Program-made: the position numbers and the translations under genes
DNA from: an uncultured bacterium
GTDB taxonomy: Bacteria; Omnitrophota; Omnitrophia; Omnitrophales; Aquincolibacteriaceae
Assembly: GCA_964349955.1 (NCBI GenBank)
Contig: CAYGIT010000003.1
Span: forward strand, 1-35,881
Direction of reading: 5' to 3'
Length of the DNA: 35,881 nucleotides
Notes under the pieces: generated by a model
Seen by the model: the letters and a program-made list of their open reading frames with translations, nothing else
Database searches by the model: none
What the model was told of the DNA's origin: nothing
Shown here: positions 10,669 through 35,881 of the stretch, piece by piece
Layout of the letters: each line of letters starts with the position of its first letter
How positions within the stretch are numbered: the first letter of the stretch is position 1

Positions 10669-11448
10669 ATGCCATTTTTAACTTCATTAGGCGTGTTGTT
10701 ATTCATTGCCCTGATTGCCCGGTCCGTCTGGATTCCGGCTTCCGGGCGGGAGAAAATCACCGGGGCTCTTTTCTTTGCCTTGTATTGCGATATCGCGTTG
10801 ACTCTTTACTTGTGGATTCGCGCACCGAAAGAAATTCTAGTCATCGGTTACGTTCTTTTCGGCGCCGGAGCTTTCTGGTTTACGGCCGAAACCCTGGGGT
10901 ATTTCCTTAAAAAAACCAATTTCTTGCCGGAAAATTTAAATCTCCTGAAAAAATACCGCAAAGGAGCCTATCAGGAAATCATGCTTGCCTGCCAGCAGCT
11001 TGCGGAAGCAAAACAAGGCGCATTGATGATTCTCGAGCGCAAACAGCCGTTAAGCGCCTGGTGCCAAAAAGGAATTTGTCTCGACGCCATCATTTCCAAA
11101 GAATTGATCTATTCAATTTTCACTCCACCGGGCGCGCCGCATGACGGCGCCGTTATTTTTCAAAAAGAGCGGATCGCCGCCTGTGCCGTGATCGTTCCCC
11201 TCACTTCCAACAGCCGGCTGCCCAAGGAACTCGGCACCCGTCATCGCGCGGCCGTGGGATTCAGCGAAATCACCGATAGCATATGCGTCGTCGTTTCCGA
11301 AGAAACCGGCAGCATTTCCATCGCCGACCGGGGAGTCCTGAATTACAATATTCCTTTTGCCCAATTGCCCGAGGCTTTGGAAAGGGCGCTTCGCTTCAAA
11401 CGCCAAAAGAGAAAAACAGCTTCTCCCGCATTCGCCAACTCCCTCTGA
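10669..11448 (+). CDS. cdaA: Diadenylate cyclase CdaA (membrane-anchored DAC domain)
   Basis: This 259-aa ORF has N-terminal hydrophobic helices followed by DAC motifs: HDGAVIF, GTRHRAAVG and VVVSEETGSISIA. Confidence 0.9.
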   Translation: MPFLTSLGVLLFIALIARSVWIPASGREKITGALFFALYCDIALTLYLWIRAPKEILVIGYVLFGAGAFWFTAETLGYFLKKTNFLPENLNLLKKYRKGAYQEIMLACQQLAEAKQGALMILERKQPLSAWCQKGICLDAIISKELIYSIFTPPGAPHDGAVIFQKERIAACAVIVPLTSNSRLPKELGTRHRAAVGFSEITDSICVVVSEETGSISIADRGVLNYNIPFAQLPEALERALRFKRQKRKTASPAFANSL

Positions 11449-11450
11449 AG

Positions 11451-12218
11451 ATGAATCCTTTTCTGCCTTTGTATTTTTTCTTTGCCGAAATTGGTGATCT
11501 TACCCGTTTTATCGGCAGCGCGGTGGCTTCGGTTTTTCTGCCGCCCTACCGCAAATCCATTGCCCGGCGCCAAATGGATGAAATCGGTGTCGGTTCCCTG
11601 CCGATCGTCACTCTCACCGGCCTTTTTATGGGGCTGGTGCTCGCGCTGCAAAGCATTGTCGAACTCCGCAGCATCGGGGCGACTTCGTATATCGGCCGCC
11701 CGATTGGCACCACCGTCATCCGGGAATTAGGCCCGGTGCTTTCTTCCATTATGGTAGCCGCGCGAGCCGGCTCCGCGATTGCCGCCGAACTGGCGTCCAT
11801 GACTATCAATGAACAAATCGATGCCCTGCGTGCCGAAGGCGCCGACCCGGTCAAAAAACTGGTGGAGCCGCGCTTGATTGCCTGCACCCTGATGATGCCG
11901 GTGCTTACCACGTTATGCGACCTGGTGGCCTTTGTCGGCGGATGGCTCGTGGCTGTGAATGTCGTGCAGGTCAGCTCTTCCTTTTATTGGGATTCCGTGC
12001 TCGAAGTTTTGACCCCCGCATTTATTTGGGGCGGGCTGATCAAATCCACGGCTTTTGGTTTTGTCATCGGCACCGTGTCCTGCCATGCGGGCATGAAACA
12101 CCGGCTTGGGTCTTCCGGGGTCGGCGAAGCCACTACCCAGGCCGTGGTGATTTCCTCCATTTCGATTCTCATGCTGGATTTTGTTCTCACAAAAATTTTC
12201 ATCATGACCTGGTGGTGA
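11451..12218 (+). CDS. mlaE: Mla-type ABC transporter permease (MlaE/YrbE family)
   Basis: The sequence reads ELGPVLSSIMVAARAGSAIAAELASMTINEQIDALRAEGADP. I chose ATG at 11451 (MNPFLPLYFF), 2 nt after the cdaA stop. The track ORF start at 11283 overlaps cdaA and is rejected. Confidence 0.88.
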   Translation: MNPFLPLYFFFAEIGDLTRFIGSAVASVFLPPYRKSIARRQMDEIGVGSLPIVTLTGLFMGLVLALQSIVELRSIGATSYIGRPIGTTVIRELGPVLSSIMVAARAGSAIAAELASMTINEQIDALRAEGADPVKKLVEPRLIACTLMMPVLTTLCDLVAFVGGWLVAVNVVQVSSSFYWDSVLEVLTPAFIWGGLIKSTAFGFVIGTVSCHAGMKHRLGSSGVGEATTQAVVISSISILMLDFVLTKIFIMTWW

Positions 12219-12227
12219 GCAAAATCC

Positions 12228-12980
12228 ATGCTAAGACTTGAAAACGTAAGCCTTGACTACGGCAGCCGGGAAATCATCCGTGATGCCAATCTTCACGCAA
12301 AAGCCGGAGAAACAAAAGTCATCCTGGGGCCGAGCGGAGTCGGGAAAAGTACCATCCTCAAGGCTTTCCTCGGACTTTTAAAACCGCGGCATGGAAAAAT
12401 TCATATCCGGAACCGTGAAATTTCCCGTCTCCCGGAAAGAGAGCTGGTGAAATTGAGGCTCGGCATGTCGATGGTTTTTCAGCACGGCGCTTTATTTGAT
12501 TCCATGACCGTTGCCGAAAATGTGAGTTTTCGCCTCCGGGAATTCGGATTGGAATCACGCGAAAAAATTCAGAAGCGCGTGCATGAAGTGCTTCACTTTG
12601 TGGGGCTCGCCCATACGAAACATCTGCGTCCGGCCGAGCTTTCGGGCGGCATGCGCAAGCGCGTGGCCATTGCCCGCGCGCTGGCCCCGGACCCGGACAT
12701 TTTTCTTTTCGATGAGCCGACCGTCGGCCTGGACCCCGTGAATCACTACAACATTGAGCAGTTAATGCTGAAGCTGAAGCATGAAAAAAAGCGCACTTTG
12801 GTCATCGTCACCCATGACGTGGAAAGCGCCTGCCGTCTCGCGGATTCGATTGTCATGGTTCATGAAGGACGGTTTATTTTCGAAGGCACTCCTCAACAAC
12901 TCAAAACCCAGACAGACCCCCGCATCCGGGCATTTTTGGATCCCGCTTCGTTTGCGGCGTCTGCGACAAAAAAGGAATAA
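12228..12980 (+). CDS. mlaF: Mla-type ABC transporter ATP-binding protein
   Basis: This 250-aa ORF has Walker A GPSGVGKST, the signature LSGGMRKRVAIARAL and Walker B IFLFDEP. Confidence 0.88.
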   Translation: MLRLENVSLDYGSREIIRDANLHAKAGETKVILGPSGVGKSTILKAFLGLLKPRHGKIHIRNREISRLPERELVKLRLGMSMVFQHGALFDSMTVAENVSFRLREFGLESREKIQKRVHEVLHFVGLAHTKHLRPAELSGGMRKRVAIARALAPDPDIFLFDEPTVGLDPVNHYNIEQLMLKLKHEKKRTLVIVTHDVESACRLADSIVMVHEGRFIFEGTPQQLKTQTDPRIRAFLDPASFAASATKKE

Positions 12981-12983
12981 ACC

Positions 12984-13625
12984 ATGGCTGCTGAACAGGT
13001 AAAAACACAAAGCGATTTCCGGGTCGGGCTTCTGACCGTTTTGGCCCTTTGCATTGTAGCGGCCGGCATCACACTCGCCGGCGGAGACAAGGGGCTGCTC
13101 TTTGAAAAAACCAGCTTGGTACGCGCCCGGCTTTCGAATATCGGCGGGCTCAAAAAAGGCTCAGGGGTCACGATGGGCGGCATGATGATCGGAAAAGTAC
13201 AGGATATTTCATTCGTGAAGAATACGGTCCCCCATTGCATCGAAGTCAAGATGTCGGTCAGCGAGAAAATGCGTGTGAATATCAAGGCAAATTCCATGCC
13301 CCTCATTAAAACCCAGGGAATGCTCGGCGATCGCTACATTGAAATCAGCGCCGGAGATCCCGCCGCGCCGGCGCTCCCTGAAGATGGAATCCTCATCGGA
13401 CAATCGGCAACGGACTTCGACGAAGCTCTTCAAAAAGCGAATACAACCCTCACGGAGACCAGCAAATTGCTCGGCGCCATCAACCAGCAGGAAGGAACCG
13501 TGGGTCAATTGTTTTATGACAAGGAATTTTATACGAGGATTACCGAGATTGAAGCCGAAGTGCATGAACTGATCAAGGACTTCAAAAAGCAGCCCCGCAA
13601 ATACATCAAGTTTTCGGTCTTTTGA
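12984..13625 (+). CDS. mlaD: MCE-domain protein (MlaD family substrate-binding component)
   Basis: This 213-aa ORF has an N-terminal TM anchor (LLTVLALCIVAAGITLA), an MCE-like region (GLKKGSGVTMGGMMIGKV) and a helical tail. Confidence 0.8.
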   Translation: MAAEQVKTQSDFRVGLLTVLALCIVAAGITLAGGDKGLLFEKTSLVRARLSNIGGLKKGSGVTMGGMMIGKVQDISFVKNTVPHCIEVKMSVSEKMRVNIKANSMPLIKTQGMLGDRYIEISAGDPAAPALPEDGILIGQSATDFDEALQKANTTLTETSKLLGAINQQEGTVGQLFYDKEFYTRITEIEAEVHELIKDFKKQPRKYIKFSVF

Positions 13626-22840: not shown

Positions 22841-25657
22841 TTATTTTTTCAAAGCCTCGGAAACCGATGCCTGCAAGGTCCGGAGTCCTGCCAGAGGATC
22901 TTTTCCCAAATCAATGGCAAGAAATGGAAGGCCTTTGTCTTCCAGGGCCAGCATATCCCCGAGCGCCTGGGCTTTTTTGAGCTGGCCGAAAGTATAGGGC
23001 TCTCCCGGAATTTTGACATCCTTTTTCTCACGGATCAAGAGCTCAAGAAAAAGGCCGGATCGCGTGCCTCCTTTATAAAGTTGGCCGATCGAATGCAAAT
23101 AACGCGGCCCAAAACCCACAAGAACGGGAACGCCGAGGCGGGCTGCAATCGTTTCGCGTATTTTATCCAAAGCTTTTTGAGTCGCAGCGGAACGTTCCAG
23201 ATAAGCCAGAAGCGCAACATAGCCGCCTTTGGGGATTTTTCTGAAAATACCCTGAAGGGCTTCGGAGGATTTTGCGGAAATCATGCCTTTCGGATCCTCA
23301 AGTTTCTCTTTTTTCTTCAGGTCTTCGAGAATCCGGCCGGTATTGTCTTTGCTTTCTTTCACATTCGGTTCATCAAACGGATTGACTCCAAGTACCGCAC
23401 TTGCAACCGCGGTCGCAATTTCCCAGCGTAAAAATTCTGCGCCGATGGAAGAAGCGGAGGGCCATTGGATCTCGACGACGGGAAACCCCGCTTTTTTTAC
23501 TGCTTTCACGGATTTTGACAAGGCCCCGGATTTTTCGCCTTTGAAACTCAAAGCCAGAAAATACCGGTCCTTCGCATAGGCTGAAATTTGCAGAGGTTTT
23601 TCTCCCTCCACAGGAATGACTCCCTTGCCTTCCTTGCCTGTGCTTTCGGCGACAAGCTGTTCGAGCCAGGTGCCAAAAGACGCCAGCCGCGGCGAAGTCC
23701 AAACCGTCATTTTGTCTTTCCCATTCCGCGCCAACTCCCCCATTAAAATTCCAAGGGAAACCGCGGAATTTTTCTGCAAATCCGCTTCCTGAGCCTGGTT
23801 GAACATATTTCGCGCGGCGAAAAGAATATCCCGGATATCGATGCCAATCAAAGCCGCAGGAACCATCCCAAAAAGAGAAAGCGCCGAATAGCGGCCGCCG
23901 ATATCGGAGGGATTCAAAAAGATTTTCCGGAACTTCTTTTCGCGGGCAAGTTTTTCAAGATTAGAACCCGGATCGGTGATTGCAATAAAGTGTTTTCCCG
24001 TATCTGTCCCCTTTTTCGGTGTCTGACACCTCTGGAAAAAATAGCGGAACTGGGAAAGGGTCTCGACCGTGCCTCCGGATTTGCTGGCCACGATAAAAAG
24101 AGCGGATTTCAGCGGAACTTTCATTTCTAGATTCAAAAGGCTGGCGGGATCGGTCGTATCCACGACATGAAGCTTCGGAAAACCGGGAAGCCGTTCGCAA
24201 ATCAATCCCATGACTTCCGGCGCAAGGCTGGAACCGCCCATACCCAGGAGAACGACATTTTTTACTTTTTCCGAGCGGATTTCTTTTTGCAGAGCATCGA
24301 TGCTGTAAAGTTTTCCAAGCACCCAATCGTGGGCAGTCAGCCAGCCCAACCGGTTCAAAATGACTTTTTGATGTTCTGCATCGCTTTTCCACAAAGTAGG
24401 GTCTTTTTTGAATAATCGAGGGACAAAATCTTTGGGAATCTTGTTATCCTGAGCCCTTCCTTGGTCATCCTGAGCGCAGCGAAGGATCTCCGAGGACAGC
24501 TTTTCGCTCAGAGATTCTTCGGCCTGGGGCCTCAGAATGACATTCTTCCGCGAATCACGTTTCAGCTCGAGCGTTTTCATCAGCGAATCAAAAGACTGGA
24601 TAAACGACTTCACACCCTCTTTTTGAAGGATCTCCCCTTGCTCGATTAAATCGATGCCGCGTTTTTTTAAATCCGTGATTACGCGCTGCGATTCATCGAG
24701 ATCTTCTTCAATACTGTTGGGCCGAACCACGGCGTGATCCAGCACGGCCTCCAGCGTATTTTGCGGCAGCGTATTGACCGTATCTTTTCCCACAAGCGTT
24801 TCCACGTAAATCAAATCGGGATACGCAGGATTTTTGGTGCTGGTGCTGCCCCAAAGCGGCCGTTGCACCCGCGCGCCGGAAGCTTTCAACACATGAAAAT
24901 CCTCCGATGAAAACATGCGTTTGAATTCCTGATAAATCAAACGGGAATTGGCAATCGCGGCTTTTCCTTTAAGATTTCCGGCATCCGGCATGGCTTCCAG
25001 TTTTTTGTCCACGAGCGAATCGATCCGGCTCACAAACACGCTGGCCACGGAATGCACCCGGCTCAAATCTCCGCCTTTTTTCTTGTAGAGTTTCAATCCC
25101 GACAAATAAGCATTGGCAACATCCCGGTAATGCTGAATCGAAAACATCAGCGTGACATTGACATTAATGCCTTCCGCGATCACCGCTTTGATGGCAGGAA
25201 TCCCTTCAGGCGTCGCAGGAATCTTGATCATCACATTCGGCCGGTTCACCAGAGCAAAAAGGCGGCGAGCCTCCGCAATCGTGCCATTCGTATCGTAAGA
25301 CAGGTCGGGGCTGACTTCCAGGCTTACAAAGCCGTGCTCGCCCCCGCTTTTCTTATAGACAGGAAGGAACAAATCGCAGGCCGCCTGGATATCTGAAACC
25401 GTCAAGGCATCGTAAATTTCGAAAATAGACCTGTTCTTCCGGAGCATTTTGAAAATGTCCCGGTCATACTCTTTGGAGGAACCGATCGCTTTTTCAAAAA
25501 TCGTGGGGTTCGAGGTGACTCCCATCAAGCCCTTCTCTTCAATCAGCGTCTTCAAACTTCCCGATTCAATCAGCGCGCGGCTGATATTGTCGAGCCAGGG
25601 ACTTTGGCCCGCCTGAAGAAGTTCCAATGTCGGTAATTTTTGAGTCATAGAATTCAT
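22841..25657 (-). CDS. Bifunctional transaldolase / glucose-6-phosphate isomerase fusion
   Basis: This 938-aa ORF has an N-terminal transaldolase domain (QSPWLDNISR, GVTSNPTIFEKA, VSLEVSP, IKIPAT). After a linker it has a PGI domain (GMGGSSLAPEV, ASKSGGTVET, GGRYSALS). Confidence 0.88.
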   Translation of the reverse strand: MNSMTQKLPTLELLQAGQSPWLDNISRALIESGSLKTLIEEKGLMGVTSNPTIFEKAIGSSKEYDRDIFKMLRKNRSIFEIYDALTVSDIQAACDLFLPVYKKSGGEHGFVSLEVSPDLSYDTNGTIAEARRLFALVNRPNVMIKIPATPEGIPAIKAVIAEGINVNVTLMFSIQHYRDVANAYLSGLKLYKKKGGDLSRVHSVASVFVSRIDSLVDKKLEAMPDAGNLKGKAAIANSRLIYQEFKRMFSSEDFHVLKASGARVQRPLWGSTSTKNPAYPDLIYVETLVGKDTVNTLPQNTLEAVLDHAVVRPNSIEEDLDESQRVITDLKKRGIDLIEQGEILQKEGVKSFIQSFDSLMKTLELKRDSRKNVILRPQAEESLSEKLSSEILRCAQDDQGRAQDNKIPKDFVPRLFKKDPTLWKSDAEHQKVILNRLGWLTAHDWVLGKLYSIDALQKEIRSEKVKNVVLLGMGGSSLAPEVMGLICERLPGFPKLHVVDTTDPASLLNLEMKVPLKSALFIVASKSGGTVETLSQFRYFFQRCQTPKKGTDTGKHFIAITDPGSNLEKLAREKKFRKIFLNPSDIGGRYSALSLFGMVPAALIGIDIRDILFAARNMFNQAQEADLQKNSAVSLGILMGELARNGKDKMTVWTSPRLASFGTWLEQLVAESTGKEGKGVIPVEGEKPLQISAYAKDRYFLALSFKGEKSGALSKSVKAVKKAGFPVVEIQWPSASSIGAEFLRWEIATAVASAVLGVNPFDEPNVKESKDNTGRILEDLKKKEKLEDPKGMISAKSSEALQGIFRKIPKGGYVALLAYLERSAATQKALDKIRETIAARLGVPVLVGFGPRYLHSIGQLYKGGTRSGLFLELLIREKKDVKIPGEPYTFGQLKKAQALGDMLALEDKGLPFLAIDLGKDPLAGLRTLQASVSEALKK
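24443..24541. repeat. Family A palindromic element located inside the tal-pgi reading frame (99 nt = 33 codons)
   Basis: The element comprises gttatcctgagc (24443-24454), ggtcatcctgagcgcagcgaaggatctc (24463-24490) and the inverted arm gagattcttcggcctggggcctcagaatgac (24511-24541). On the minus strand it is translated as NVILRPQAEESLSEKLSSEILRCAQDDQGRAQDNK. Confidence 0.8.
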
Positions 25658-28402: not shown

Positions 28403-28702
28403 TCAAGGATGGGGAGTCACAGCAATGATTGTAATTTGCCTTTTATCCGGGCCATAACACCAGAAGAGCCGGTAAGCAGCGGGAGTTTGATTTTGAACGT
28501 AAGCTTCGAAGACTTTCTGCTCTTTTGAAAATGGTGAAGGAATGGAGTGATATTCATGCGTCTTCAAAGAAGGATGACGGGGATTCATTTGAAGGAAAGC
28601 CAGGCTCTTTTTGATTTGCTTCATGAGCCCTGTATGTGCGGGACTAACTTCAAGGCGATCCAATTCCCTCTGCGCCGAGGCAGTAAAAAGAATTTCAAAC
28701 AT
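28403..28702 (-). CDS. Putative type II toxin, RelE/ParE-superfamily-like
   Basis: This 99-aa ORF overlaps the upstream AbrB-type gene by 1 nt. Its C-terminal pattern [25 protein letters not shown] resembles RelE/ParE toxins. Confidence 0.6.
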
Positions 28703-29004
28703 TATTCAGGGTCGGCATATTTTGAAAAATCTTCGCGCGCCTTGCTTATCTTACCGGCACGAGCTTCTTCAAGGCCTTTTGCCACCGCCGCCTTTGCCAC
28801 CTTGTTTTGAAACAGCCATGCTTCATAAACCGGAATCGTTGTCTGGGGATCCAAAACATATTGTCCAATTGAATTCCGGTAAATCTTATAACTCGATACC
28901 TTGACGCTACCGGAAGCGCCTAACGTGATCCTGTTTTTTGAGTCTACTTTTACCTCGCCGTAAGGCTCAAAATCAGATTCTTTAATGACATTTTCTTTAT
29001 CCAT
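28702..29004 (-). CDS. Putative type II antitoxin, AbrB/MazE/SpoVT-type DNA-binding domain
   Basis: This 100-aa ORF has an N-terminal swapped-hairpin motif GEVKVDSKNRITLG and a helical C-terminus. It lies immediately upstream of the toxin-like ORF. Confidence 0.6.
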   Translation of the reverse strand: MDKENVIKESDFEPYGEVKVDSKNRITLGASGSVKVSSYKIYRNSIGQYVLDPQTTIPVYEAWLFQNKVAKAAVAKGLEEARAGKISKAREDFSKYADPE

Positions 29005-29129: not shown

Positions 29130-29275
29130 ATTAAAAAGGGTATTAAGCACTGCTCATCACGATCGCCTCTGACTTAGAATAGCTTATAGCAATTCATAAC
29201 ATTTCGGGCCTGTCTATTGAAGTCTCTAAGAAAAGCGGTGATCTTTAAGTTTGAAAGAAAGACTGAGGATAATGA

Positions 29276-32200
29276 ATGGCTTCTAAGTTAGTTTCTCTTT
29301 TTCTGGCGATTGCGATGATCATGGAACCCATGGTTCCGCTTTATGCTTGTCCTCCCGGTTTCACATGCATTGGGTCAGGTGCCGGGGAACTTGTAAATGC
29401 ACCCATAGGAACGACAACAACTACGACTACTGACGGTAACGGCACTACAACTACAACCACGACAACTACCTCGACCTCATCGCTGCCGCCTTCAATTTCG
29501 GCTACCAACCCACTATCGTCACCGTCACCTTTACCGACACCGAGTGCAACCAGCGCTCCTTCATCTTCACCGAGCCCTGGTACAACGACAAACTCTTTTC
29601 CAGCTAATTTTACAATTATTTACAATGGAACAAATTCTGACTACCCGGACCTGCGGCAAAGATTTTCTACTGCTCTCGGTTTTGATTCATCAACGAGAGT
29701 AGCGATCATGCTCAATACGACAGAACCCATGGTACACAATGCGCTCTATTTTGAAATCCATGATCTGAATAATCCGTCAGGCCCCATTCAAAACCGGGGC
29801 ATGATATCCATTTTATCCAATGCGGCGGCAATGCTCACACTGCCTTTCTCCGCCTTCCCTTATTATTTTATGCCGACATTAATTATAGAACCGCGGACAT
29901 GGGGCCTGGTGGCCGAATACCTTCCACCGAGCATTGTTAAATCGGCGCCGACAACACCTCCATCAACACCCACACCGGCTTCAACGCCATCGACAACCGG
30001 CCCAACACCGGAACCCGTCGAATCGGTCGTTCAGTACTTTTCTCCGGTCGCATTTTCCATCGCAGCCACTCCGGAAACCCCGGAACCAAGCGCGACACCA
30101 GCAATTGATCCGACACCGACACCATCAACTGAGCCCTCGACTACGCCAACAACTGACCCGTCAACGACACCTTCAACGGAGCCGTCAACGACACCTTCGA
30201 CTGAGCCGTCAACGACACCTTCAACGGAACCATCAACTACACCGTCGGAAAGTCCCGCTGAATCACCGGCGCCTTCACCTTCATCATCAACGGTGCCAGA
30301 TCCGTTGCCCTCGCCATCGGATGACGAGTCGCCTTCACCGGAGGATGAGGAGGAACCCACTGATTCTCCAACGCCACCAACGCAAAGCGCTGAAATTGTG
30401 TTGAATGCCTGGATTCCCCAGGAAATGACCAATTTTTTCCAATCTAATGAACTTGCCGTTGTGCGCGCTATCGCCAATCAACCTTTAAACTCCCTTAGCC
30501 TTAACTGCCAACCCGATTGCGGTTTGGCTTTTAGAAACACAACCACAAACAACTTTTTTTCCGCATTCGTTGCTCTTTCCGATCAAGACAGCATCGACCT
30601 CACGACGGCAGAGTTCGTTGGTTCTACGGCGCGTATGAGCAGCGGAATCGTTTTAACTGCGGGGACATCCGATCCGGTTACTATTAAAACATTAACCATT
30701 GACCGCGATGACAACGGCCAGATTACTGCAATCCATTTTCTGGACGAAGACGAAATAAGCAAACTGACCCTTCGCTATCCCCAGGAAGTCCTGTCAACGG
30801 CTCAAGTCGACCCGATGTCTTCCGATAACTCGATTTATATTTTTAATTCCGTCCCCAATTTTAATCCCGGAGATTTAAAATTTCTAACTTCCCAAACAAA
30901 CACCGAAACTCCCGGGCCCGTGAAAATCACACTCGAAAATGGTGAGATTCCCGGTTCCGCAGAAACTCAATGGATCTCTTTTTACACGGCGAATGAAGAT
31001 CAATACAGGATCCTGATTCCCAATGGTCCGCCAGGAACGCTGACTCAAGATGTGGCCCTTTCCAGCGCACAAATGGGAATGATGCAAATGGAAACGAATG
31101 AATTCGATCCCATCACAGGTTCTTCACTTTCATTAGGCCCTGCCCCCTTAGACACATTACGGATTGTCCGTGACGCAACGGGCAATATCGTTTCCATCTC
31201 TTTTAAGTCTAATGGCTATTCTCTTTTAAAAGTCACCGTTCTTCCCGTAACGGCTCCGGAAGTGAATGAGAACGACAACATTTCAGATATTTCCTTTGCT
31301 TCTATTGAAAACCAGGACGAAGTTTCGGAAGAAGACTGGAATGAGTTTGGAATCGTGGAAAGCGACGAAAATCCTTTCTCCGAAGAACCTTCTCTCGACG
31401 ATCCTGATCTTGAATCAATTCCAGATGCAGCAAAAGCTCAAATGCAAAGCGTCCTGAATTCATTGAGCTTTGTCCTTCAGGTCGCGATCGTTACGGGGCA
31501 AGTGGATCAAGGCACATTTGGAATGAGACAGTCCGTAAATCAGATCATAGAATCAAATAATTTGCTCAACTATCCCCAATTCCGGAATGCCTATCAATCT
31601 ATCATGCAAAGGATCTTGCGGTTTTCAAATAGCGCGAGATATGTGGAAAACCTGCCTGATCCCGCAATGAATCTCCCCGAAGACCTTCCGGAATCCTACC
31701 GGCAACTTTTGACGGATTTCATGTCTGCTAATGAGCCAGGCAACCCGGATTTGGGGCCATCCGAGAATTTCCTATCGGCCATCCAGGAGGAACAGGGCCG
31801 CATTGCCCAACTTGCCACAGACCGGGACGCGCTTTTTGTCCGGGCATTGACCGATCCCGCGGCTCTGGATCAATGGAACAATCAGCCCGTTTCAATCGCA
31901 GGAAGAAATTATTCCTCTCACGCAATGGCCTATCTTGCGGAAATAGCCCGGTCTCAAAGGCGCATCAGTTTTCTTAAACAGGCTTTTCGCCGGGTGATTG
32001 CCCCGCGTATGGCTGCGGCAATAACCGCTGTCCAGAACGACCGGCTGGCAGCCCCTCAATCCGCGACCGGTTCACAAGATTTCCGCGAAGGATTTCTCCG
32101 GGAGATCAATTATTACGCCACCAATCTTGGCATAGGCACCGAGGCTGCCATGCGGGCCAACCTGGATGCGCTTCGCCTTCAAGCGACCAACGCGATACGA

Positions 32201-35200
32201 ATTGCTGAAGGACTGGGCCAGCCCATCCAAATCAATGAACAAACATTCGTTTTAAACCTCATTGATCTGCTTCGCAGTGTTAATCCACTCCCCATATCCG
32301 CTCCCGCAGCCGAGGTAACGGTAAATATCCAGGGAAGCGATAGTCAAACCCGTGCGGGAACCCTATTAATGAATCCGCTCCCAACAATAAGCGATCTTCC
32401 GTCAGGAATCGTCAGGTCCGCCAATCCAATCACGGCCGGAGCGGGAGGACGTTTTCAGGCCTCCAATTACAGCCTGGGCTGGAGCGTCGACAACAATAAT
32501 CAAAAGCTTACTGTTATTGAAACCCGGATATGGCAAGAAAGCGGCCAGGAATGGCGTGAGGTCAAGAATTCCGCCGGAGACTTCCGCAGAATGAGGGGCA
32601 TTGTCACGCCCGTAACAGCATCTGCAAGGGATTGGAAAATCAGCGAAGTCCAGTATGCTAACGGTTCAATCGTTCGAGGAGACCCGCCGGCTTATGACCG
32701 GATTCCGGTTTCACTCCGGGATGCCATGACCGCAATCGTCAATATTCCCGGCGAGCCGGGTGAAATGAGAATTGTCCAGTTCTCCGCTCCGTTGCAGGAT
32801 GGCACTATCCTTAATTTTGTTAATCCTTATCTTATGGAACAACGCCAGGGAAACCAAGTTTTGGGATGGCAGCTGAATTTGACAAGCTTGCAAACCCTTA
32901 GTCAGTATTCTCCGGCCAATCGCATGGCCCAAGCCCGTTTGATAGCTCAAAATATTTTATCCGGCAACAACAACCAAATACTTAACGCTTTGATTGCCTT
33001 TACGATGGGACTCGGCCGCTATAATCTCGAAAAGAATACAAACGCAGAATTTGATTTTTCCGAGGCGATAGCACAATTTTTATTTGATCTTACGGGTCCC
33101 ATGGCAGGCGATGCCTATCAGATTAGCAGGCAATCAATCGCCTTGAATACCACGGGTAACTTAATATTTAAAATTCAAAACGACAACAAACTTAACATGA
33201 TGGCAACTTACGTAGACAGCAACGGAGCAATAGTTCGCCAAATTCCTGCCTATTTCGGGCTACGCTCGGACTATCCTGGAATGAACAATGGCACCCCCGC
33301 CTATAACGGAACCGACATGGCCCGTTCAGCGTATGGTTTATTAGTGATGCAAGGAAATACAGCCGGAGCGCAAACCACCAATAATGCGGCCAATAATCCG
33401 GCAAATCTAATTCGAGAGTACAAAGACGATGGAAGTATGAATTTGTGGGTCACAGACGCCACGCCTCTCACCACCATGGTCCTTAATGACCGGTACAGGA
33501 CCTTAGTTTCTCGCTCCATATTGGGCAGCGATGGTCAAGTAGGAGATTGGAATCTTTCCGTTGCACGATTGGTCAGGATAAGCCATACGTCAGTATCCAC
33601 TGGTGTCCCTTCTTATTTGGGAGTGATCGGACAATCCTTAAGCGCTAACTGGATTCCGCTCTCCTCTTTTGGACTTGAGACCGACCGTGCACTGCCGAAT
33701 ATTGCTTCGATGGGTCTTCAGGGAATAGGTGTCGGCTGGAATTTCCTCTTTAGTACTGCAAGGTCTGGTTCCCGATTGATGGCTGCCGAGGTTTTTTCCC
33801 AATTGGGAGTTGATCTCGGCGTCGAGAACCAGCTTTCCGCTATTTCAAATGAAATTGAAGCTGTCATAGCCCTCGGGCAAATAGAAGGATTAGTGACAAA
33901 CTCAACGACCCCTCCGCGAGAACAGATCATGCAGCAACTTAGCCGGGGGAATATACCAACATTTATGCAAGGCGATTTTGCCAGAGCTAAGGCGATCCCG
34001 GGCGCCACAGCCATTTTGGATTACATGGTCCGGCTTCGACGTGAAGCCAATACGCCCCGGGACAACCGGGCCGGGGTTGCGCCGGGAACACGGGACGCCA
34101 TTATCAACGCTCCCATTACGGAAGCCCAGCGGGCTTTTGAACTTGTCAAGTGGAGGATCCCCGGAGAATTGAGTAATCTCCGGGCCAGCGCCGGATATGA
34201 TGTCTTGACTAATGCTGCCATGGGTTTCCTCGCTAATGCTAACAATAAGCTGGCGGAAGAAGCTGCAGCCCTTATTGTTCTGCACGGACTCGGCGCTGTC
34301 GCTGCGGCAGCGGCCCGTGTGCCTGCGACAGTTGAAGCAGCCGCGGCAGCCCGAGCGGTCAGCGGAATCACTTCGATTACGCGAGCCAATGCAATTACCG
34401 GAACGATTCGCGTGGCAAGCGCAGCCGTAAACACTTCCATGCTTCCGGGCATTGCGGCTTCACTCCCCTTGCATTTAGTAGAAACTCTCCATGCCTTGGG
34501 AGAAGGAAATTACGTGAACTTCAGCGATGCTGCCGCCGGACTGGCCATGGACTCTTTTTTTGCTTTCACCATGGTACACGGACTCGTTCAAGGTTTTACC
34601 GGTGGCTCCCCTCACGGCACCGGCCCTATCGATGCGGTCCTCCAGAGGGGCGCAAATAATCTCATCGATATCGCTCAAGGTTGGCGGCCCGGGACAGCGG
34701 CAGCTCTTGCTCCCTACCTTGTTGCTATTCCTCGTATCCGGGATGCCAATAACCGGCAAACACTCATCGAACAAAGTTCCTTATTAGATCCCATAAGGCT
34801 GGAAATCGATCGTTTGCTCAGCCGACAGGCAGCAGGCACTCTTACTCCAAACGAACGGATTCGCTTAGGTTTTTTGCGACTGCAACAAGAAAATATTCTT
34901 GGCGGCATGCGCACCTTGATTTCTCTGGATTATATTGAAAGTTCCAGGTCCCAACTGCTCAATGGCCGGGACCAAAGCGCCCTCTCCGAAGCCGAAAGGG
35001 CCACTTTCGATCAACTGCAGGCAGAATCAAGACGCCTCAATCAAGAAATTGACAGCCTTTATCGCGAACTTTCACGATCTCTCGTTGAAAGAGCCCCCAA
35101 TGCAATTGATCTTACTCCTGAAGTTAATGTTACGCGGGCAAACATTCCGACCGCTCGCGGTGCGACCACTCTTTATGAAGGCGGCTCTCTTATTTTAGCC

Positions 35201-35881
35201 TCTGTGGGATTTGCCGCTCTTGCCGGGCCGGGAGGATTGTATGCTGGCATAATCGGAGTCGGAGCCTTATTTATAGGAGGCCTCATAATGAGGTACTTTG
35301 TTCAGAACCGCCGTCCCGGGGTCAATGTCTCCACAACCGATTCAGTCATTGAAATAGGAACCGGAAATCCTAATGGAAGGGTTACTCTTCAGCCCGGAGA
35401 ATCTCAAGTTTACAGAACTGCAGACGGCGTAACATTCCGGGTACGGCGCGGTCCTGCAACCGGTACCGATGCCGGGCAATACTTTCTTGAAGTTGTCCGC
35501 GAAAATACAATAACGGGTTCGTATGATGTAATCACTAGCACACGCGTTACCCAACCAACTCTCAACCTGGTAACAAACCGTTTGGTAATCCGGACTACCG
35601 GTCAAAACCCGGGAGTTTATATAGGCGGCACAAAAGTGGCAGAGCTGCCGGCAGAAGGTTCCACAATAACGGTTCCCAGCCCTGAAGGCTCCGGAACAGC
35701 CACATTTCAAATCCGTCGCAATAACGGCAGTTATTCCATGATTCAAAATAATGTAGAAACTCGTGTGAATGCCAACGCTCCCACAGTAATCTATGGAACC
35801 CGTGTCGCTCAAATTCGTATCAATCTCCTTACCGGCGAAGTCACTAATGAGAGTGGCCCGGGGGCCGCTCCGTCACTACCC
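29276..35881 (+). CDS. Giant secreted/membrane-anchored protein of unknown function, 3'-truncated by the window edge (at least 2,202 aa)
   Basis: ATG 29276 has GAGGA 6 nt upstream and an in-frame TGA at 29273-29275. The frame stays open to base 35881 (6,606 nt). The track does not list it because no stop occurs in the window. The N-terminus MASKLVSLFLAIAMIMEPMVPLYAC looks like a signal peptide. The ORF also has Thr/Pro/Ser linkers and a hydrophobic anchor at 35186-35290. Confidence 0.85.
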   Translation, partial: MASKLVSLFLAIAMIMEPMVPLYACPPGFTCIGSGAGELVNAPIGTTTTTTTDGNGTTTTTTTTTSTSSLPPSISATNPLSSPSPLPTPSATSAPSSSPSPGTTTNSFPANFTIIYNGTNSDYPDLRQRFSTALGFDSSTRVAIMLNTTEPMVHNALYFEIHDLNNPSGPIQNRGMISILSNAAAMLTLPFSAFPYYFMPTLIIEPRTWGLVAEYLPPSIVKSAPTTPPSTPTPASTPSTTGPTPEPVESVVQYFSPVAFSIAATPETPEPSATPAIDPTPTPSTEPSTTPTTDPSTTPSTEPSTTPSTEPSTTPSTEPSTTPSESPAESPAPSPSSSTVPDPLPSPSDDESPSPEDEEEPTDSPTPPTQSAEIVLNAWIPQEMTNFFQSNELAVVRAIANQPLNSLSLNCQPDCGLAFRNTTTNNFFSAFVALSDQDSIDLTTAEFVGSTARMSSGIVLTAGTSDPVTIKTLTIDRDDNGQITAIHFLDEDEISKLTLRYPQEVLSTAQVDPMSSDNSIYIFNSVPNFNPGDLKFLTSQTNTETPGPVKITLENGEIPGSAETQWISFYTANEDQYRILIPNGPPGTLTQDVALSSAQMGMMQMETNEFDPITGSSLSLGPAPLDTLRIVRDATGNIVSISFKSNGYSLLKVTVLPVTAPEVNENDNISDISFASIENQDEVSEEDWNEFGIVESDENPFSEEPSLDDPDLESIPDAAKAQMQSVLNSLSFVLQVAIVTGQVDQGTFGMRQSVNQIIESNNLLNYPQFRNAYQSIMQRILRFSNSARYVENLPDPAMNLPEDLPESYRQLLTDFMSANEPGNPDLGPSENFLSAIQEEQGRIAQLATDRDALFVRALTDPAALDQWNNQPVSIAGRNYSSHAMAYLAEIARSQRRISFLKQAFRRVIAPRMAAAITAVQNDRLAAPQSATGSQDFREGFLREINYYATNLGIGTEAAMRANLDALRLQATNAIRIAEGLGQPIQINEQTFVLNLIDLLRSVNPLPISAPAAEVTVNIQGSDSQTRAGTLLMNPLPTISDLPSGIVRSANPITAGAGGRFQASNYSLGWSVDNNNQKLTVIETRIWQESGQEWREVKNSAGDFRRMRGIVTPVTASARDWKISEVQYANGSIVRGDPPAYDRIPVSLRDAMTAIVNIPGEPGEMRIVQFSAPLQDGTILNFVNPYLMEQRQGNQVLGWQLNLTSLQTLSQYSPANRMAQARLIAQNILSGNNNQILNALIAFTMGLGRYNLEKNTNAEFDFSEAIAQFLFDLTGPMAGDAYQISRQSIALNTTGNLIFKIQNDNKLNMMATYVDSNGAIVRQIPAYFGLRSDYPGMNNGTPAYNGTDMARSAYGLLVMQGNTAGAQTTNNAANNPANLIREYKDDGSMNLWVTDATPLTTMVLNDRYRTLVSRSILGSDGQVGDWNLSVARLVRISHTSVSTGVPSYLGVIGQSLSANWIPLSSFGLETDRALPNIASMGLQGIGVGWNFLFSTARSGSRLMAAEVFSQLGVDLGVENQLSAISNEIEAVIALGQIEGLVTNSTTPPREQIMQQLSRGNIPTFMQGDFARAKAIPGATAILDYMVRLRREANTPRDNRAGVAPGTRDAIINAPITEAQRAFELVKWRIPGELSNLRASAGYDVLTNAAMGFLANANNKLAEEAAALIVLHGLGAVAAAAARVPATVEAAAAARAVSGITSITRANAITGTIRVASAAVNTSMLPGIAASLPLHLVETLHALGEGNYVNFSDAAAGLAMDSFFAFTMVHGLVQGFTGGSPHGTGPIDAVLQRGANNLIDIAQGWRPGTAAALAPYLVAIPRIRDANNRQTLIEQSSLLDPIRLEIDRLLSRQAAGTLTPNERIRLGFLRLQQENILGGMRTLISLDYIESSRSQLLNGRDQSALSEAERATFDQLQAESRRLNQEIDSLYRELSRSLVERAPNAIDLTPEVNVTRANIPTARGATTLYEGGSLILASVGFAALAGPGGLYAGIIGVGALFIGGLIMRYFVQNRRPGVNVSTTDSVIEIGTGNPNGRVTLQPGESQVYRTADGVTFRVRRGPATGTDAGQYFLEVVRENTITGSYDVITSTRVTQPTLNLVTNRLVIRTTGQNPGVYIGGTKVAELPAEGSTITVPSPEGSGTATFQIRRNNGSYSMIQNNVETRVNANAPTVIYGTRVAQIRINLLTGEVTNESGPGAAPSLP
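30122..30241 (+). repeat. In-frame 24-nt tandem repeat x5 encoding P(S/T)T(E/D)PSTT
   Basis: The units start at 30122, 30146, 30170, 30194 and 30218, with a degenerate sixth unit after 30242. They lie in the second Pro/Thr/Ser linker of the giant ORF. Confidence 0.85.
35186..35290 (+). other. Hydrophobic membrane-anchor segment of the giant protein (aa 1971-2005)
   Basis: The segment SLILASVGFAALAGPGGLYAGIIGVGALFIGGLIM is followed by the basic stretch RYFVQNRRPG. Confidence 0.65.

What the first reader, a model, noticed from the sequence alone, without database searches (positions are those of the whole stretch)
29276..35881. Giant ORF (over 2,202 codons) missing from the ORF track: signal peptide, PT-rich stalks, about 1,500 aa of unassignable sequence, then a membrane anchor
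**Reading frame.**
- The + strand frame starting at ATG 29276 has GAGGA 6 nt upstream and an in-frame TGA directly before it.
- It has no stop up to the last base of the window (6,606 nt).
- The supplied track lists only short ORFs in other frames here, apparently because this ORF never closes.
- I checked frame continuity against the listed frame-0 ORFs at 29934, 31266, 33978, 34527 and 34935.

**Architecture read from the translation.**
- An N-terminal hydrophobic leader ends LYA-C, which is signal-peptide-like and possibly a weak lipobox.
- A poly-Thr tract lies at 29411-29480, followed by an approximately 115-aa module.
- A 150-aa Pro/Thr/Ser/acidic linker carries a 24-nt tandem repeat.
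- About 1,500 aa follow in which I recognise no enzyme, Ig, cadherin, RHS or toxin signature.
- An Ala-rich stretch lies around 34270-34345.
- A heptad-like segment lies around 34790-35100.
- A hydrophobic anchor and further beta-rich modules then run off the window.
- I saw only four Cys in 2,202 aa.

**Context.** The gene sits next to a TA module and is divergent from the core-gene block, which suggests an accessory cell-surface or interaction protein.
Basis: partly seen in the sequence, partly recalled or inferred. Interest (0 to 1): 0.85.

Follow-up and report, generated by a model that had tools for sequence, protein, structure and literature searches.

The report
Orphan giant envelope protein, Omnitrophota
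The open frame is a real gene for the first 2,202 residues of a very large, exported, membrane-anchored protein in an uncultivated Omnitrophota bacterium; it has almost no known relatives, which is common for large proteins in that phylum.

Summary
ATG 29276 opens a frame with no stop for 2,202 codons to the window's last base; the other five frames have 77-127 stops. Three independent public assemblies are 100% identical over it, and all break within 27 nt of the window end, so the gene is cut by assembly. Pfam, NCBIfam, PHROGs, PADLOC, PDB sequences, phages, plasmids, GTDB genomes and JGI metagenomes give nothing significant. An exhaustive HMMER scan of 1.84 billion representatives with aa 1003-2202 gives one hit, a 367-aa soil-metagenome fragment 47-49% identical over the juxtamembrane helices, the TM helix and the first C-terminal module. 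Both proteins are nearly Lys-free (1.0% and 0.3%, against 6.8% in neighbours). The neighbouring genes place the contig in Candidatus Omnitrophota, a phylum known for long signal-peptide-plus-TM proteins that are mostly sequence singletons. My verdict is a real, lineage-specific envelope or surface protein: a new member of a known kind. Its function is inferred (cell contact) and its true length is unknown. The "TA module" has no profile support.

The parts
29265..29269 (+). Shine-Dalgarno-like GAGGA, 6 nt before the ATG
   Evidence: Read directly from the sequence.
29276..35881 (+). Open reading frame, 2,202 codons, with no stop before the window end (the 5' part of a longer gene)
   Evidence: Translation; stop counts and codon usage; identical in three assemblies.
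29276..29347 (+). Signal-peptide-like N-terminus, aa 1-24: MASK, then a 12-residue hydrophobic core, then EPMVPLYA before Cys25
   Evidence: Hydropathy peak of 1.89 at aa 5-23; sequence. No SignalP run was available.
29408..29590 (+). Stalk 1, aa 45-105: 38% Thr, 23% Ser, 16% Pro
   Evidence: Composition.
29591..29920 (+). N-terminal head module, aa 106-215, with no relatives
   Evidence: Pfam and NCBIfam give 0 hits at E <= 10. The word-index search found only 2 candidates and none was significant.
29921..30430 (+). Stalk 2, aa 216-385: Pro/Thr/Ser-rich with an acidic tail (net charge of aa 26-385 is -28)
   Evidence: Composition.
30093..30243 (+). 24-nt tandem repeat, 6.3 copies, encoding (T/S)EPSTTPS units inside stalk 2
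   Evidence: Tandem Repeats Finder score 162, 79% matches, no indels; peptide.
30431..31255 (+). Beta-rich region, aa 386-660. It holds the Cys411/Cys415 pair and two copies of a 22-aa motif (P....TL.I.RD..G.I..I.F) 155 aa apart.
   Evidence: AF2 secondary structure, low confidence. Smith-Waterman z = 4.3, the best of 36 segment pairs.
31256..31423 (+). Acidic, probably disordered linker, aa 661-716 (35% Asp+Glu, net charge -20)
   Evidence: Composition; no secondary structure in the model.
31424..32275 (+). Alpha-helical region, aa 717-1000 (helices of 17-31 residues)
   Evidence: AF2 secondary structure.
32276..33565 (+). Mixed region, aa 1001-1430: beta at 1057-1168, helices at 1178-1273, beta at 1305-1328
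   Evidence: AF2 secondary structure.
33131..33472 (+). Weak FlgD-like (Ig-like beta-sandwich) similarity, aa ~1286-1399. This is a lead only.
   Evidence: PDB 3c12_A at E = 0.011. NCBIfam NF009277 at E = 0.0018, 18.4 bits against a cutoff of 333. No Pfam hit.
33566..35155 (+). All-alpha region, aa 1431-1960. It includes the Ala-rich hydrophobic helices (aa 1664-1690, 1753-1771) and a 35-residue heptad-like helix (aa 1905-1939).
   Evidence: AF2 secondary structure; hydrophobicity.
34628..35494 (+). The only part with a known relative: aa 1785-2073, 47% identical to fragment P0001 (juxtamembrane helices, TM helix, first C-terminal module)
   Evidence: phmmer E = 6.9e-60; BLASTP 1e-66; alignment A1.
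35156..35305 (+). Hydrophobic anchor, aa 1961-2010: a marginal helix at 1961-1980, a GPGG turn, then a clear TM helix at 1987-2005, followed by RYFVQNRR
   Evidence: Summed insertion free energy of 0.6 for aa 1987-2005 against a median of 18; KD peak of 2.01; two helices in the model.
35306..35881 (+). Post-anchor beta-rich modules, aa 2011-2202. They end in a Pro/Ala/Ser linker (GPGAAPSLP) at the assembly break.
   Evidence: AF2 strands at aa 2016-2157. SEF14_adhesin scores 19.7 bits, below the gathering score of 22.8. Contig ends are at 35854 and 35881.

Best explanation
The ORF is the 5' 6.6 kb of a real gene in an uncultivated Candidatus Omnitrophota bacterium. It encodes a large, lineage-specific envelope protein of at least 2,202 aa.

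**Proposed mechanism**
1. An N-terminal Sec-type signal peptide sends the chain across the cytoplasmic membrane.
2. A small head module is held on two extended Thr/Pro/Ser stalks (61 and 170 aa).
3. About 1,570 aa of alternating beta-rich and alpha-helical domains follow. They are net acidic and almost free of Lys, His and Cys.
4. A conserved all-helical juxtamembrane region leads into a hydrophobic anchor, with one clear TM helix at aa 1987-2005.
5. The chain continues on the other side with beta-rich modules and a further linker, past the point where every assembly breaks.

The protein would therefore be tethered to the cell membrane and project a long, stalked ectodomain into the envelope or to the cell surface. 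There it most probably mediates contact with another cell or surface, the role proposed for the signal-peptide-plus-TM class of long Omnitrophota proteins.

**Shown:** the ORF, its coding character, the segment anatomy, the single relative, the taxon and the loss of synteny.

**Inferred:** export, topology, surface exposure and the contact function.
For: **Gene is real**
- Open frame and coding statistics.
- Identical sequence in three assemblies.
- Start context and signal-peptide-like N-terminus.

**Anatomy**
- Stalks and the 24-nt repeat.
- Secondary-structure pattern from two AF2 runs.
- One strong TM helix followed by Arg residues.

**A family under selection**
- One relative at 47-49% identity exactly over the juxtamembrane helices, the TM helix and the first C-terminal module.
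- It shows the same extreme Lys depletion: 1 Lys in 367 aa with 10% Arg. The giant ORF has 1.0% Lys and 14 neighbour proteins have 6.8%.

**Taxon and cell type**
- Neighbour genes and their order match Omnitrophota MAGs. GlgP is 56-71% identical. CSD, TAL-PGI and the LysM-amidase are 57-83% identical in the best-conserved loci, and gene order is conserved there.
- An Mla operon in the window implies an outer membrane.

**Literature**
- 39% of long Omnitrophota proteins are SP+TM, 80% are sequence singletons and 15% have no Pfam hit.
- N-terminal regions of the giants generally lack domains and sit near signal peptides.
Against: - No signal-peptide or topology predictor could be run.
- The hydrophobic stretch could be a hairpin (aa 1961-1980 plus 1985-2010). 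That would put the C-terminal modules on the same side as the N-terminal body.
- In a diderm cell, an inner-membrane anchor leaves the ectodomain in the periplasm unless another export step exists, and none is seen.
- The type II secretion or pilus genes reported next to 13 of 14 of the largest Omnitrophota giants are absent from the 29 kb upstream.
- No adhesin, lectin, Ig, cadherin or enzyme domain is detected.
- Both structure models have pLDDT of only 36-37, so the fold searches carry no information.
Confidence: 0.55

Rival explanations
1. This is the N-terminal end of a true Omnitrophota giant protein (over 10,000 aa, Archaeovorin-like or a 'dark' giant). Many more TM helices and the SecA-like, glycosyl-transferase, hydrolase or peptidase domains would lie downstream of the assembly break. 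This refines the best explanation on length rather than excluding it.
For: - The taxon is Omnitrophota.
- Full-length giants have domain-free N-terminal regions near signal peptides.
- Short-read MAG contigs typically break inside long ORFs.
- All three assemblies stop within 27 nt of each other inside the gene, just as a new Pro/Ala/Ser linker begins. The relative P0001 also ends in a Pro/Ala-rich stretch.
Against: - There is only one clear TM helix in 2,202 aa, whereas the giants average about one per 370-1,000 aa.
- No C39 or S8 peptidase domain near the N-terminus and no SecA_DEAD domain.
- No T2SS or pilus flank in the 29 kb upstream.
- The length is simply unknown.
Confidence: 0.3
2. This is an ordinary-sized large envelope protein (about 2.3-3 kaa) that ends shortly after the window. 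It would be an inner-membrane-anchored periplasmic or trans-envelope scaffold, not a surface adhesin and not a giant.
For: - The anchor lies near the end of what is visible.
- The only relative covers just the juxtamembrane, TM and first-module region. It shows about 135 aa after its TM helix.
- The cell is probably diderm, given the Mla operon, so an inner-membrane-anchored ectodomain would sit in the periplasm.
- No secretion-system neighbours.
Against: - P0001 is a protein-level assembly fragment with no contig on record, so its end need not be a stop codon.
- A body of 1,950 aa on 230 aa of extended stalk is large for a periplasm.
- The window sequence runs into another linker rather than a terminus.
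Confidence: 0.25
3. The gene is cargo of a mobile element or prophage, for example a tape-measure-like, entry-exclusion or injected protein, brought in together with the adjacent small-gene pair.
For: - GC3 is 0.47 against 0.58 in the neighbours, and local GC is lower.
- The gene and the adjacent pair of ~100-aa genes are absent from the syntenic position in relatives.
- Mobile-DNA flanks are reported at many giant-gene loci.
Against: - PHROGs gives 0 hits and PADLOC gives 0 hits.
- tblastn against 50,697 phage and 72,556 plasmid records finds no match.
- IMG/VR scans find nothing.
- No integrase, transposase or tRNA in the window.
- A signal peptide and Pro/Thr stalks are not features of a tape measure protein.
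Confidence: 0.05
4. This is a secreted or contact-delivered pore-forming or translocator-like toxin. The roughly 530-aa all-helical region, with its Ala/Gly-rich hydrophobic helices and terminal hairpin, would insert into a target membrane rather than anchor the protein in the producer.
For: - A long all-alpha region containing three moderately hydrophobic helices plus a helix-GPGG-helix hairpin.
- Lys depletion is conserved in the family.
- Omnitrophota are thought to be host-dependent or predatory.
Against: - No similarity to any toxin or translocator family. The only PDB profile hit is a Cry chimera at E = 1, which is noise.
- The hydrophobic helices other than aa 1987-2005 are marginal.
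- The sequence continues for at least 190 aa after the hairpin.
Confidence: 0.05
5. The ORF is not a gene. It would be a chance open frame, a pseudogene remnant or an assembly chimera.
For: - Public gene calls disagree on the 5' end. One assembly starts the gene at GTG 30398 and calls an antisense ORF in the PT linker.
- No expression data are available.
Against: - P(no stop) is about 1e-43.
- In-frame codon usage matches the neighbours best.
- A 47%-identical protein exists in an unrelated sample.
- Three assemblies are identical.
- The antisense call translates to a Gly/Val/Ser/Asp shadow of the repeat.
Confidence: 0.01

Closest known systems
Long signal-peptide-plus-TM ('SP+TM') and 'Pfam-dark' proteins of Candidatus Omnitrophota (Nielsen & Lui 2026, bioRxiv 10.64898/2026.06.07.730766; West-Roberts et al. 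2023, bioRxiv 10.1101/2023.11.21.568195)
   Same: - Same phylum.
- Signal peptide plus a TM anchor.
- N-terminal region without identifiable domains.
- Sequence singleton.
- Gene cut at a contig boundary in short-read assemblies.
   Different: - The length cannot be established, and those catalogues start at 10,000 aa.
- No SecA_DEAD, C39 or S8 peptidase, dockerin, TSP3, NHL or enzyme domain in the visible part.
- Only one clear TM helix.
- No T2SS, pilus or glycoside hydrolase genes in the upstream flank.
P0001: a 367-aa protein-level assembly fragment from run SRR3989338 (source label 'SRC'), unnamed
   Same: - 47-49% identity over aa 1785-2073, with invariant motifs QRGAN.LID, QGWRPGTA, AIPRI.D.NNRQ, LLNGR and ALSEAER.
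- Same helix-TM-beta order.
- Same near absence of Lys.
   Different: - It is a fragment only, with no contig on record.
- Nothing is known of its N-terminal body.
- It diverges after the first post-TM module.
FlgD hook-capping protein, Ig-like/Tudor C-terminal domain (PDB 3C12; NCBIfam NF009277)
   Same: A stretch at aa ~1286-1399 aligns weakly (D.NG..V...., G.Y......TAGA motifs), which is compatible with a beta-sandwich module.
   Different: - E-values are 0.011 and 0.0018, and the 18-bit score is far below the family cutoff of 333.
- No Pfam FlgD or FlgD_ig hit.
- No flagellar genes nearby.
- The two hits come from the same family, so they are not independent.
Large modular bacterial adhesins (RTX/LapA/Bap-type, autotransporters, RHS/YD proteins)
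   Same: - Large size.
- Low Cys.
- Asn/Thr/Ser/Ala-rich, acidic composition.
- Linker-separated modules.
   Different: - No Ig-like, cadherin, RTX, passenger-repeat, YD or beta-barrel domain is detected, even at E <= 1-10.
- No detectable tandem domain array.
- It has an N-terminal Sec signal and an alpha-helical TM anchor rather than a T1SS or T5SS signal.
Pro/Thr-rich interdomain linkers of secreted bacterial glycoside hydrolases and cellulosomal proteins (my own knowledge)
   Same: Extended Pro/Thr/Ser spacers built from short tandem repeats separate folded modules in exported proteins.
   Different: Here the stalks flank a module of unknown fold, and no catalytic or carbohydrate-binding domain is detected. 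Glycosylation cannot be tested with these tools.

Membership tests
Omnitrophota giant proteins, Archaeovorin type (West-Roberts 2023) | Length above 30,000 aa (or at least 10,000 aa in the Nielsen & Lui catalogue) | not testable with these tools
   The ORF runs off the contig at 2,202 codons. All available assemblies end at or before 35881, and no collection held an extension.
Omnitrophota giant proteins, Archaeovorin type (West-Roberts 2023) | Divergent SecA DEAD-like domain, plus glycosyl transferase, glycosyl hydrolase, methyltransferase, peptidase and NUDIX domains | tested here: not met
   Pfam gives 0 families at E <= 1 on the whole 2,202 aa, and only noise at E <= 10 on segments. This applies only to the visible N-terminal part.
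Omnitrophota giant proteins, Archaeovorin type (West-Roberts 2023) | Numerous transmembrane regions | tested here: inconclusive
   One clear TM helix (aa 1987-2005) and three marginal hydrophobic helices in 2,202 aa, by hydropathy only. DeepTMHMM was not available.
Omnitrophota giant proteins, Archaeovorin type (West-Roberts 2023) | Type II secretion or pilus genes in the flanks | tested here: not met
   The 29 kb upstream holds housekeeping genes only. The downstream flank is not available.
Omnitrophota Dockerin-type giant proteins | [quoted passage not shown] | tested here: not met
   No Pfam hit.
SP+TM topology class of long Omnitrophota proteins (Nielsen & Lui 2026) | Host genome belongs to Omnitrophota | tested here: met
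   GlgP is 56-71% identical to eight Omnitrophota or uncultured MAG contigs. Conserved gene order across six to seven neighbouring genes is seen in three of them (L004, L009, L011).
SP+TM topology class of long Omnitrophota proteins (Nielsen & Lui 2026) | N-terminal signal peptide and at least one TM helix | tested here: met
   The n/h/c regions are read from the sequence. Hydropathy peaks lie at aa 5-23 and aa 1987-2005. This rests on heuristics, not on a trained predictor.
FlgD / FlgD Ig-like domain | Profile match above the family threshold | tested here: not met
   NCBIfam gives 18.4 bits against a cutoff of 333. PDB 3c12 gives E = 0.011. Pfam gives no hit.
Bacterial lipoprotein | Lipobox [LVI][ASTVI][GAS]C at the end of an uncharged h-region | tested here: inconclusive
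   L-Y-A-C has Tyr at -2, Pro at -4 and Glu17 inside the h-region. By the PROSITE-type rule, recalled from memory, it fails. No LipoP or SignalP run was available.
Known large adhesin or toxin families (RTX, autotransporter, RHS/YD, cadherin, Big, LapA) | Presence of the family's repeat or domain | tested here: not met
   Pfam and NCBIfam give no hit. LapA (E = 0.066) and SEF14_adhesin (19.7 bits against a gathering score of 22.8) are below threshold.
Type II toxin-antitoxin module (neighbours 28403-29004, minus strand) | Profile match of either partner to a toxin or antitoxin family | tested here: not met
   No Pfam, NCBIfam or PADLOC hit at the loosest cut-offs used (E <= 10 for Pfam and NCBIfam, E <= 1 for PADLOC), and no PDB sequence hit at E <= 10. 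Only the two-gene, ATGA-overlap layout fits.
Phage or plasmid protein | Relative in phage or plasmid records or in PHROGs | tested here: not met
   Searches found nothing.

The most novel reading that the evidence does not exclude
The ORF founds a previously undescribed family of Lys-free envelope proteins. The family would be defined by a conserved helical juxtamembrane domain (QRGAN.LID...QGWRPGTA...AIPRI.D.NNRQ) and a Gly-rich anchor. The stalked, acidic ectodomain would form a host-contact or trans-envelope fibre of a new fold. The conserved replacement of Lys by Arg would be functional, for example giving resistance to Lys-directed proteases or to amine-reactive chemistry at the cell-cell interface.
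Probability: 0.15. Interest if true: 0.6.

Novelty: new member of a known kind. Interest (0 to 1): 0.35.

Why it matters
Omnitrophota are ultra-small, host-dependent or predatory bacteria. Their very long membrane-anchored proteins are thought to mediate attachment to and attack on other cells, yet most of that sequence is unannotated.

This locus adds one more orphan to that set. It has three useful features:
- a cleanly defined N-terminus;
- a short conserved juxtamembrane block that can serve as a search profile;
- a conserved, extreme Lys depletion that could be used as a compositional marker for exported proteins of this type.

It also shows two practical problems:
- Short-read assemblies and gene callers mis-handle such genes. 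Here the ORF is truncated, the 5' end is split off and an antisense shadow ORF is called in the linker.
- Truncated products drop out of protein databases, which inflates apparent orphan status.

On its own it does not open a new question.

Tried and rejected
**Profile libraries**
- Pfam, NCBIfam, PHROGs and PADLOC on the whole protein and on nine segments found nothing above threshold.

**Homologue searches**
- Three word-index searches were run, on aa 385-2202, 385-1002 and 101-220. None found anything.
- The first of these missed P0001, which is 47% identical and is in the collection.
- The exhaustive phmmer search covered only aa 1003-2202. The N-terminal 1,002 aa were never searched exhaustively.

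**Scans of contig collections**
- GTDB genomes, JGI metagenomes (twice, the second time with motifs from alignment A1) and IMG/VR (twice) found no relative and no extension of the contig.
- Looking up P0001's contig found nothing on record.
- tblastn against phage and plasmid records found no match.

**Structure**
- Two single-sequence AlphaFold2 runs gave pLDDT 37.3 and 35.8.
- Foldseek against the PDB with both models gave 0 matches at E <= 0.001. I discarded these.

**Weak or spurious hits**
- PDB sequence searches gave only FlgD at E = 0.011-0.1 and a Cry chimera at E = 1.
- The E ~ 1e-12 hits of the PT repeat to Plasmodium circumsporozoite repeats are compositional and I rejected them.

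**Synteny**
- Related Omnitrophota loci have no large divergent gene beside GlgP and CSD.
- Low-Lys ORFs on the minus strand of L010 turned out to be shadows of a Lys-rich plus-strand gene.

**Internal repeats**
- BLASTP self-comparison found none.
- The two post-TM modules are not significantly alike (z about 2.2-2.5).
- Only one 22-aa motif recurs. Its regular expression was derived after the fact, so its shuffle test is not independent.

**Literature**
- Searches for Lys-poor surface proteins and for the run accessions returned nothing useful.

Full report

Yes. The sequence shows GAGGA at 29265-29269, an in-frame TGA at 29273-29275 and ATG at 29276. Translation from 29276 to the last base gives 2,202 codons without a stop.

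- The other five frames of the same 6.6 kb contain 77-127 stops.
- From base composition, the chance of no stop is about 1e-43.
- In-frame relative codon usage correlates with ten neighbouring genes at r = 0.60, against 0.40 and 0.29 for the two shifted frames.
- The ORF is absent from the ORF listing only because that tool omits ORFs running off the source.
- Contigs from two Logan run assemblies and one ENA assembly carry the same DNA at 100% identity. A frameshift artefact is therefore unlikely.
- All of these contigs stop at 35854-35881, inside the gene.

Public gene calls disagree on the 5' end. One assembly starts the gene at ATG 29276. Another starts it at GTG 30398 (codon 375) and calls an antisense 109-aa Gly/Val/Ser/Asp 'gene' inside the repeat, which is a shadow ORF. 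ATG 29276 is the first possible start after the stop, has the only good ribosome-binding site and yields a signal-peptide-like N-terminus, so I accept it.

**2. Anatomy**

| Residues | Feature | Basis |
|---|---|---|
| 1-24 | MASK, a 12-residue hydrophobic core, then EPMVPLYA before Cys25 | |
| 45-105 | Stalk 1: 38% Thr, 23% Ser, 16% Pro | |
| 106-215 | Module with no relatives | |
| 216-385 | Stalk 2: Pro/Thr/Ser-rich with an acidic tail; holds a 24-nt tandem repeat (30093-30243, 6.3 copies) encoding TEPSTTPS | |
| 386-660 | Beta-rich region; a 22-aa motif occurs twice, 155 aa apart (z = 4.3) | |
| 661-716 | Acidic linker | |
| 717-1000 | Helices | |
| 1001-1430 | Mixed beta and alpha | |
| 1431-1960 | All helical | |
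| 1961-2010 | Two hydrophobic helices around a GPGG turn | |
| 2016-2157 | Beta strands | |

The two single-sequence AlphaFold2 runs were of low confidence (pLDDT 37 and 36). They give only this secondary-structure pattern.

- Only aa 1987-2005 is hydrophobic enough to be a clear TM helix. Its summed insertion energy is 0.6, against a protein-wide median of 18. It is followed by RYFVQNRR.
- The window ends as another Pro/Ala/Ser linker begins.
- There are four Cys in all, at residues 25, 31, 411 and 415.

The composition is unusual.

| Residue | aa 385-2202 | 14 neighbour proteins |
|---|---|---|
| Lys | 1.0% | 6.8% |
| His | 0.4% | 2.1% |
| Cys | 0.1% | 0.7% |
| Arg | 6.4% | 6.1% |
| Asn | 7.5% | 3.3% |

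**3. Relatives**

Nothing significant came from any profile library or collection.

- Pfam, NCBIfam, PHROGs and PADLOC gave nothing above threshold.
- PDB sequence searches gave nothing significant.
- Phage and plasmid records, IMG/VR, GTDB genomes and JGI metagenomes gave no relative.
- The word-indexed protein searches were negative. They are weakened by having missed the one true relative.

The exhaustive HMMER scan of 1.84 billion cluster representatives with aa 1003-2202 found exactly one protein, P0001 (E = 6.9e-60).

- It is an unnamed 367-aa singleton from run SRR3989338, with no contig on record.
- It aligns at 47-49% identity with aa 1785-2073, which covers the last helices before the membrane, the anchor and the first post-anchor module.
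- It shares long invariant motifs with the giant ORF.
- It has 1 Lys in 367 residues and 10% Arg. The Lys-to-Arg bias is therefore a conserved property of the family, not drift in one gene.

Two correlated weak hits to FlgD cover aa ~1286-1399. At most they suggest a beta-sandwich module.

**4. Context**

The rest of the window is chromosomal housekeeping: MgsA, PheST, ThrRS, IF3, L20, an ABC-F protein, a diadenylate cyclase, MlaEFD, a sulfate-type ABC transporter, Rrf2, a LysM amidase, a transaldolase-PGI fusion, a glycogen phosphorylase-like protein and a cold-shock protein.

- The phosphorylase has 56-71% identical copies in eight Candidatus Omnitrophota or uncultured MAG contigs.
- Gene order from orf88 through GlgP to the cold-shock gene is kept in three of them.
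- Beyond the cold-shock gene synteny stops. The two ~100-aa genes and the giant gene have no counterpart there.
- The giant gene's GC3 is 0.47, against 0.58 for the neighbours.
- The gene is therefore lineage-specific at this level of divergence. No mobile-element gene is present.
- The two small genes overlap by ATGA but match no toxin or antitoxin family at the loosest cut-offs used (E <= 10 for Pfam, NCBIfam and PDB; E <= 1 for PADLOC). 'TA module' is a guess from layout only.

**5. Mechanism**

The best-supported reading is a Sec-exported, membrane-tethered envelope protein. Its head module and long acidic body are held away from the anchor by extended Pro/Thr stalks, and the chain continues past the anchor.

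- Sequence features show the parts.
- Export, topology and surface exposure are inferred.
- A contact or adhesion role is inferred from architecture and from what is proposed for similar Omnitrophota proteins.

Open problems:
- The anchor may be a hairpin.
- The Mla operon implies an outer membrane, so reaching the surface needs a further step, and none is seen.
- The secretion or pilus neighbours typical of the largest giants are absent upstream.

**6. Comparison with what is known**

In Omnitrophota, 39% of long proteins are SP+TM, 80% are sequence singletons at 30% identity and 15% have no domain hit. N-terminal regions of full-length giants generally lack domains. Short-read contigs break inside long ORFs.

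This gene fits that description in taxon, topology class and orphan status. Its membership of the 'giant' class proper cannot be tested, because its length is unknown. The defining SecA-like and enzyme domains are not in the visible part.

**7. Verdict**

This is a real orphan gene of a known kind, with one curious conserved trait (Lys depletion) and a short conserved juxtamembrane block. Interest is moderate to low (0.35): a specialist in this phylum would expect such genes. The key unknowns are length, fold and function, and they need data outside this window.

Noticed in passing
window 29276-35881 and protein P0001: Extreme Lys depletion with Arg retained is shared by the giant ORF (1.0% Lys, 6.4% Arg) and its only relative (0.3% Lys, 10% Arg). 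Fourteen neighbouring proteins average 6.8% Lys. His and Cys are also depleted. I have no explanation.
   Followed up: partly
window 28403-28702 and 28702-29004, minus strand: Two ~100-aa genes overlap by ATGA, a layout like a toxin-antitoxin pair. Neither matches any Pfam, NCBIfam or PDB entry at E <= 10, or any PADLOC model at E <= 1. Both are absent from related Omnitrophota loci.
   Followed up: partly
window 30031-30398: Public gene calls on an identical contig (L001) start the giant gene at GTG 30398. They also call an antisense 109-aa Gly/Val/Ser/Asp-rich ORF at 30031-30360 inside the PT linker. This is a gene-caller artefact that detaches the signal peptide and stalks from the protein.
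   Followed up: yes
tool behaviour: The word-indexed homologue search returned nothing for aa 385-2202, yet a 47%-identical protein is in its collection. The truncated products of this gene on other contigs are also not in the searchable collection, so orphan status of truncated giant genes is partly a database effect.
   Followed up: partly
window 22841-25657, minus strand: A 938-aa fusion of transaldolase (aa 21-362) and a phosphoglucose-isomerase domain (aa 463-676). It is conserved at about 57% identity next to GlgP in three related MAG loci.
   Followed up: no
window 11283-13625, plus strand: An MlaE/MlaF/MlaD-type operon, which implies an outer membrane in this organism. A diadenylate cyclase domain protein lies just upstream at 10669-11448, and its ORF overlaps the longest MlaE ORF.
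   Followed up: no
window 29276-30427: The Pro/Thr repeat gives E ~ 1e-12 PDB sequence hits to Plasmodium circumsporozoite protein repeats. These are compositional matches, not homology.
   Followed up: yes
L010 4-2850 (+) and 3370-3930 (+): In one related Omnitrophota contig, the region upstream of the cold-shock gene holds two genes. One is a helical, Lys-rich ORF of at least 948 aa that reaches to within 3 nt of the contig start. The other is a 186-aa signal-peptide-bearing Ser/Thr/Gly/Ala-rich protein. Neither resembles the giant ORF.
   Followed up: no
window 30431-31255 (aa 466-487 and 621-642): A 22-aa motif, P....TL.I.RD..G.I..I.F, occurs twice, 155 aa apart. This hints at an old duplication of a beta module (Smith-Waterman z = 4.3 among 36 segment pairs). 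A looser D..G.I hairpin also occurs at aa ~1314.
   Followed up: partly
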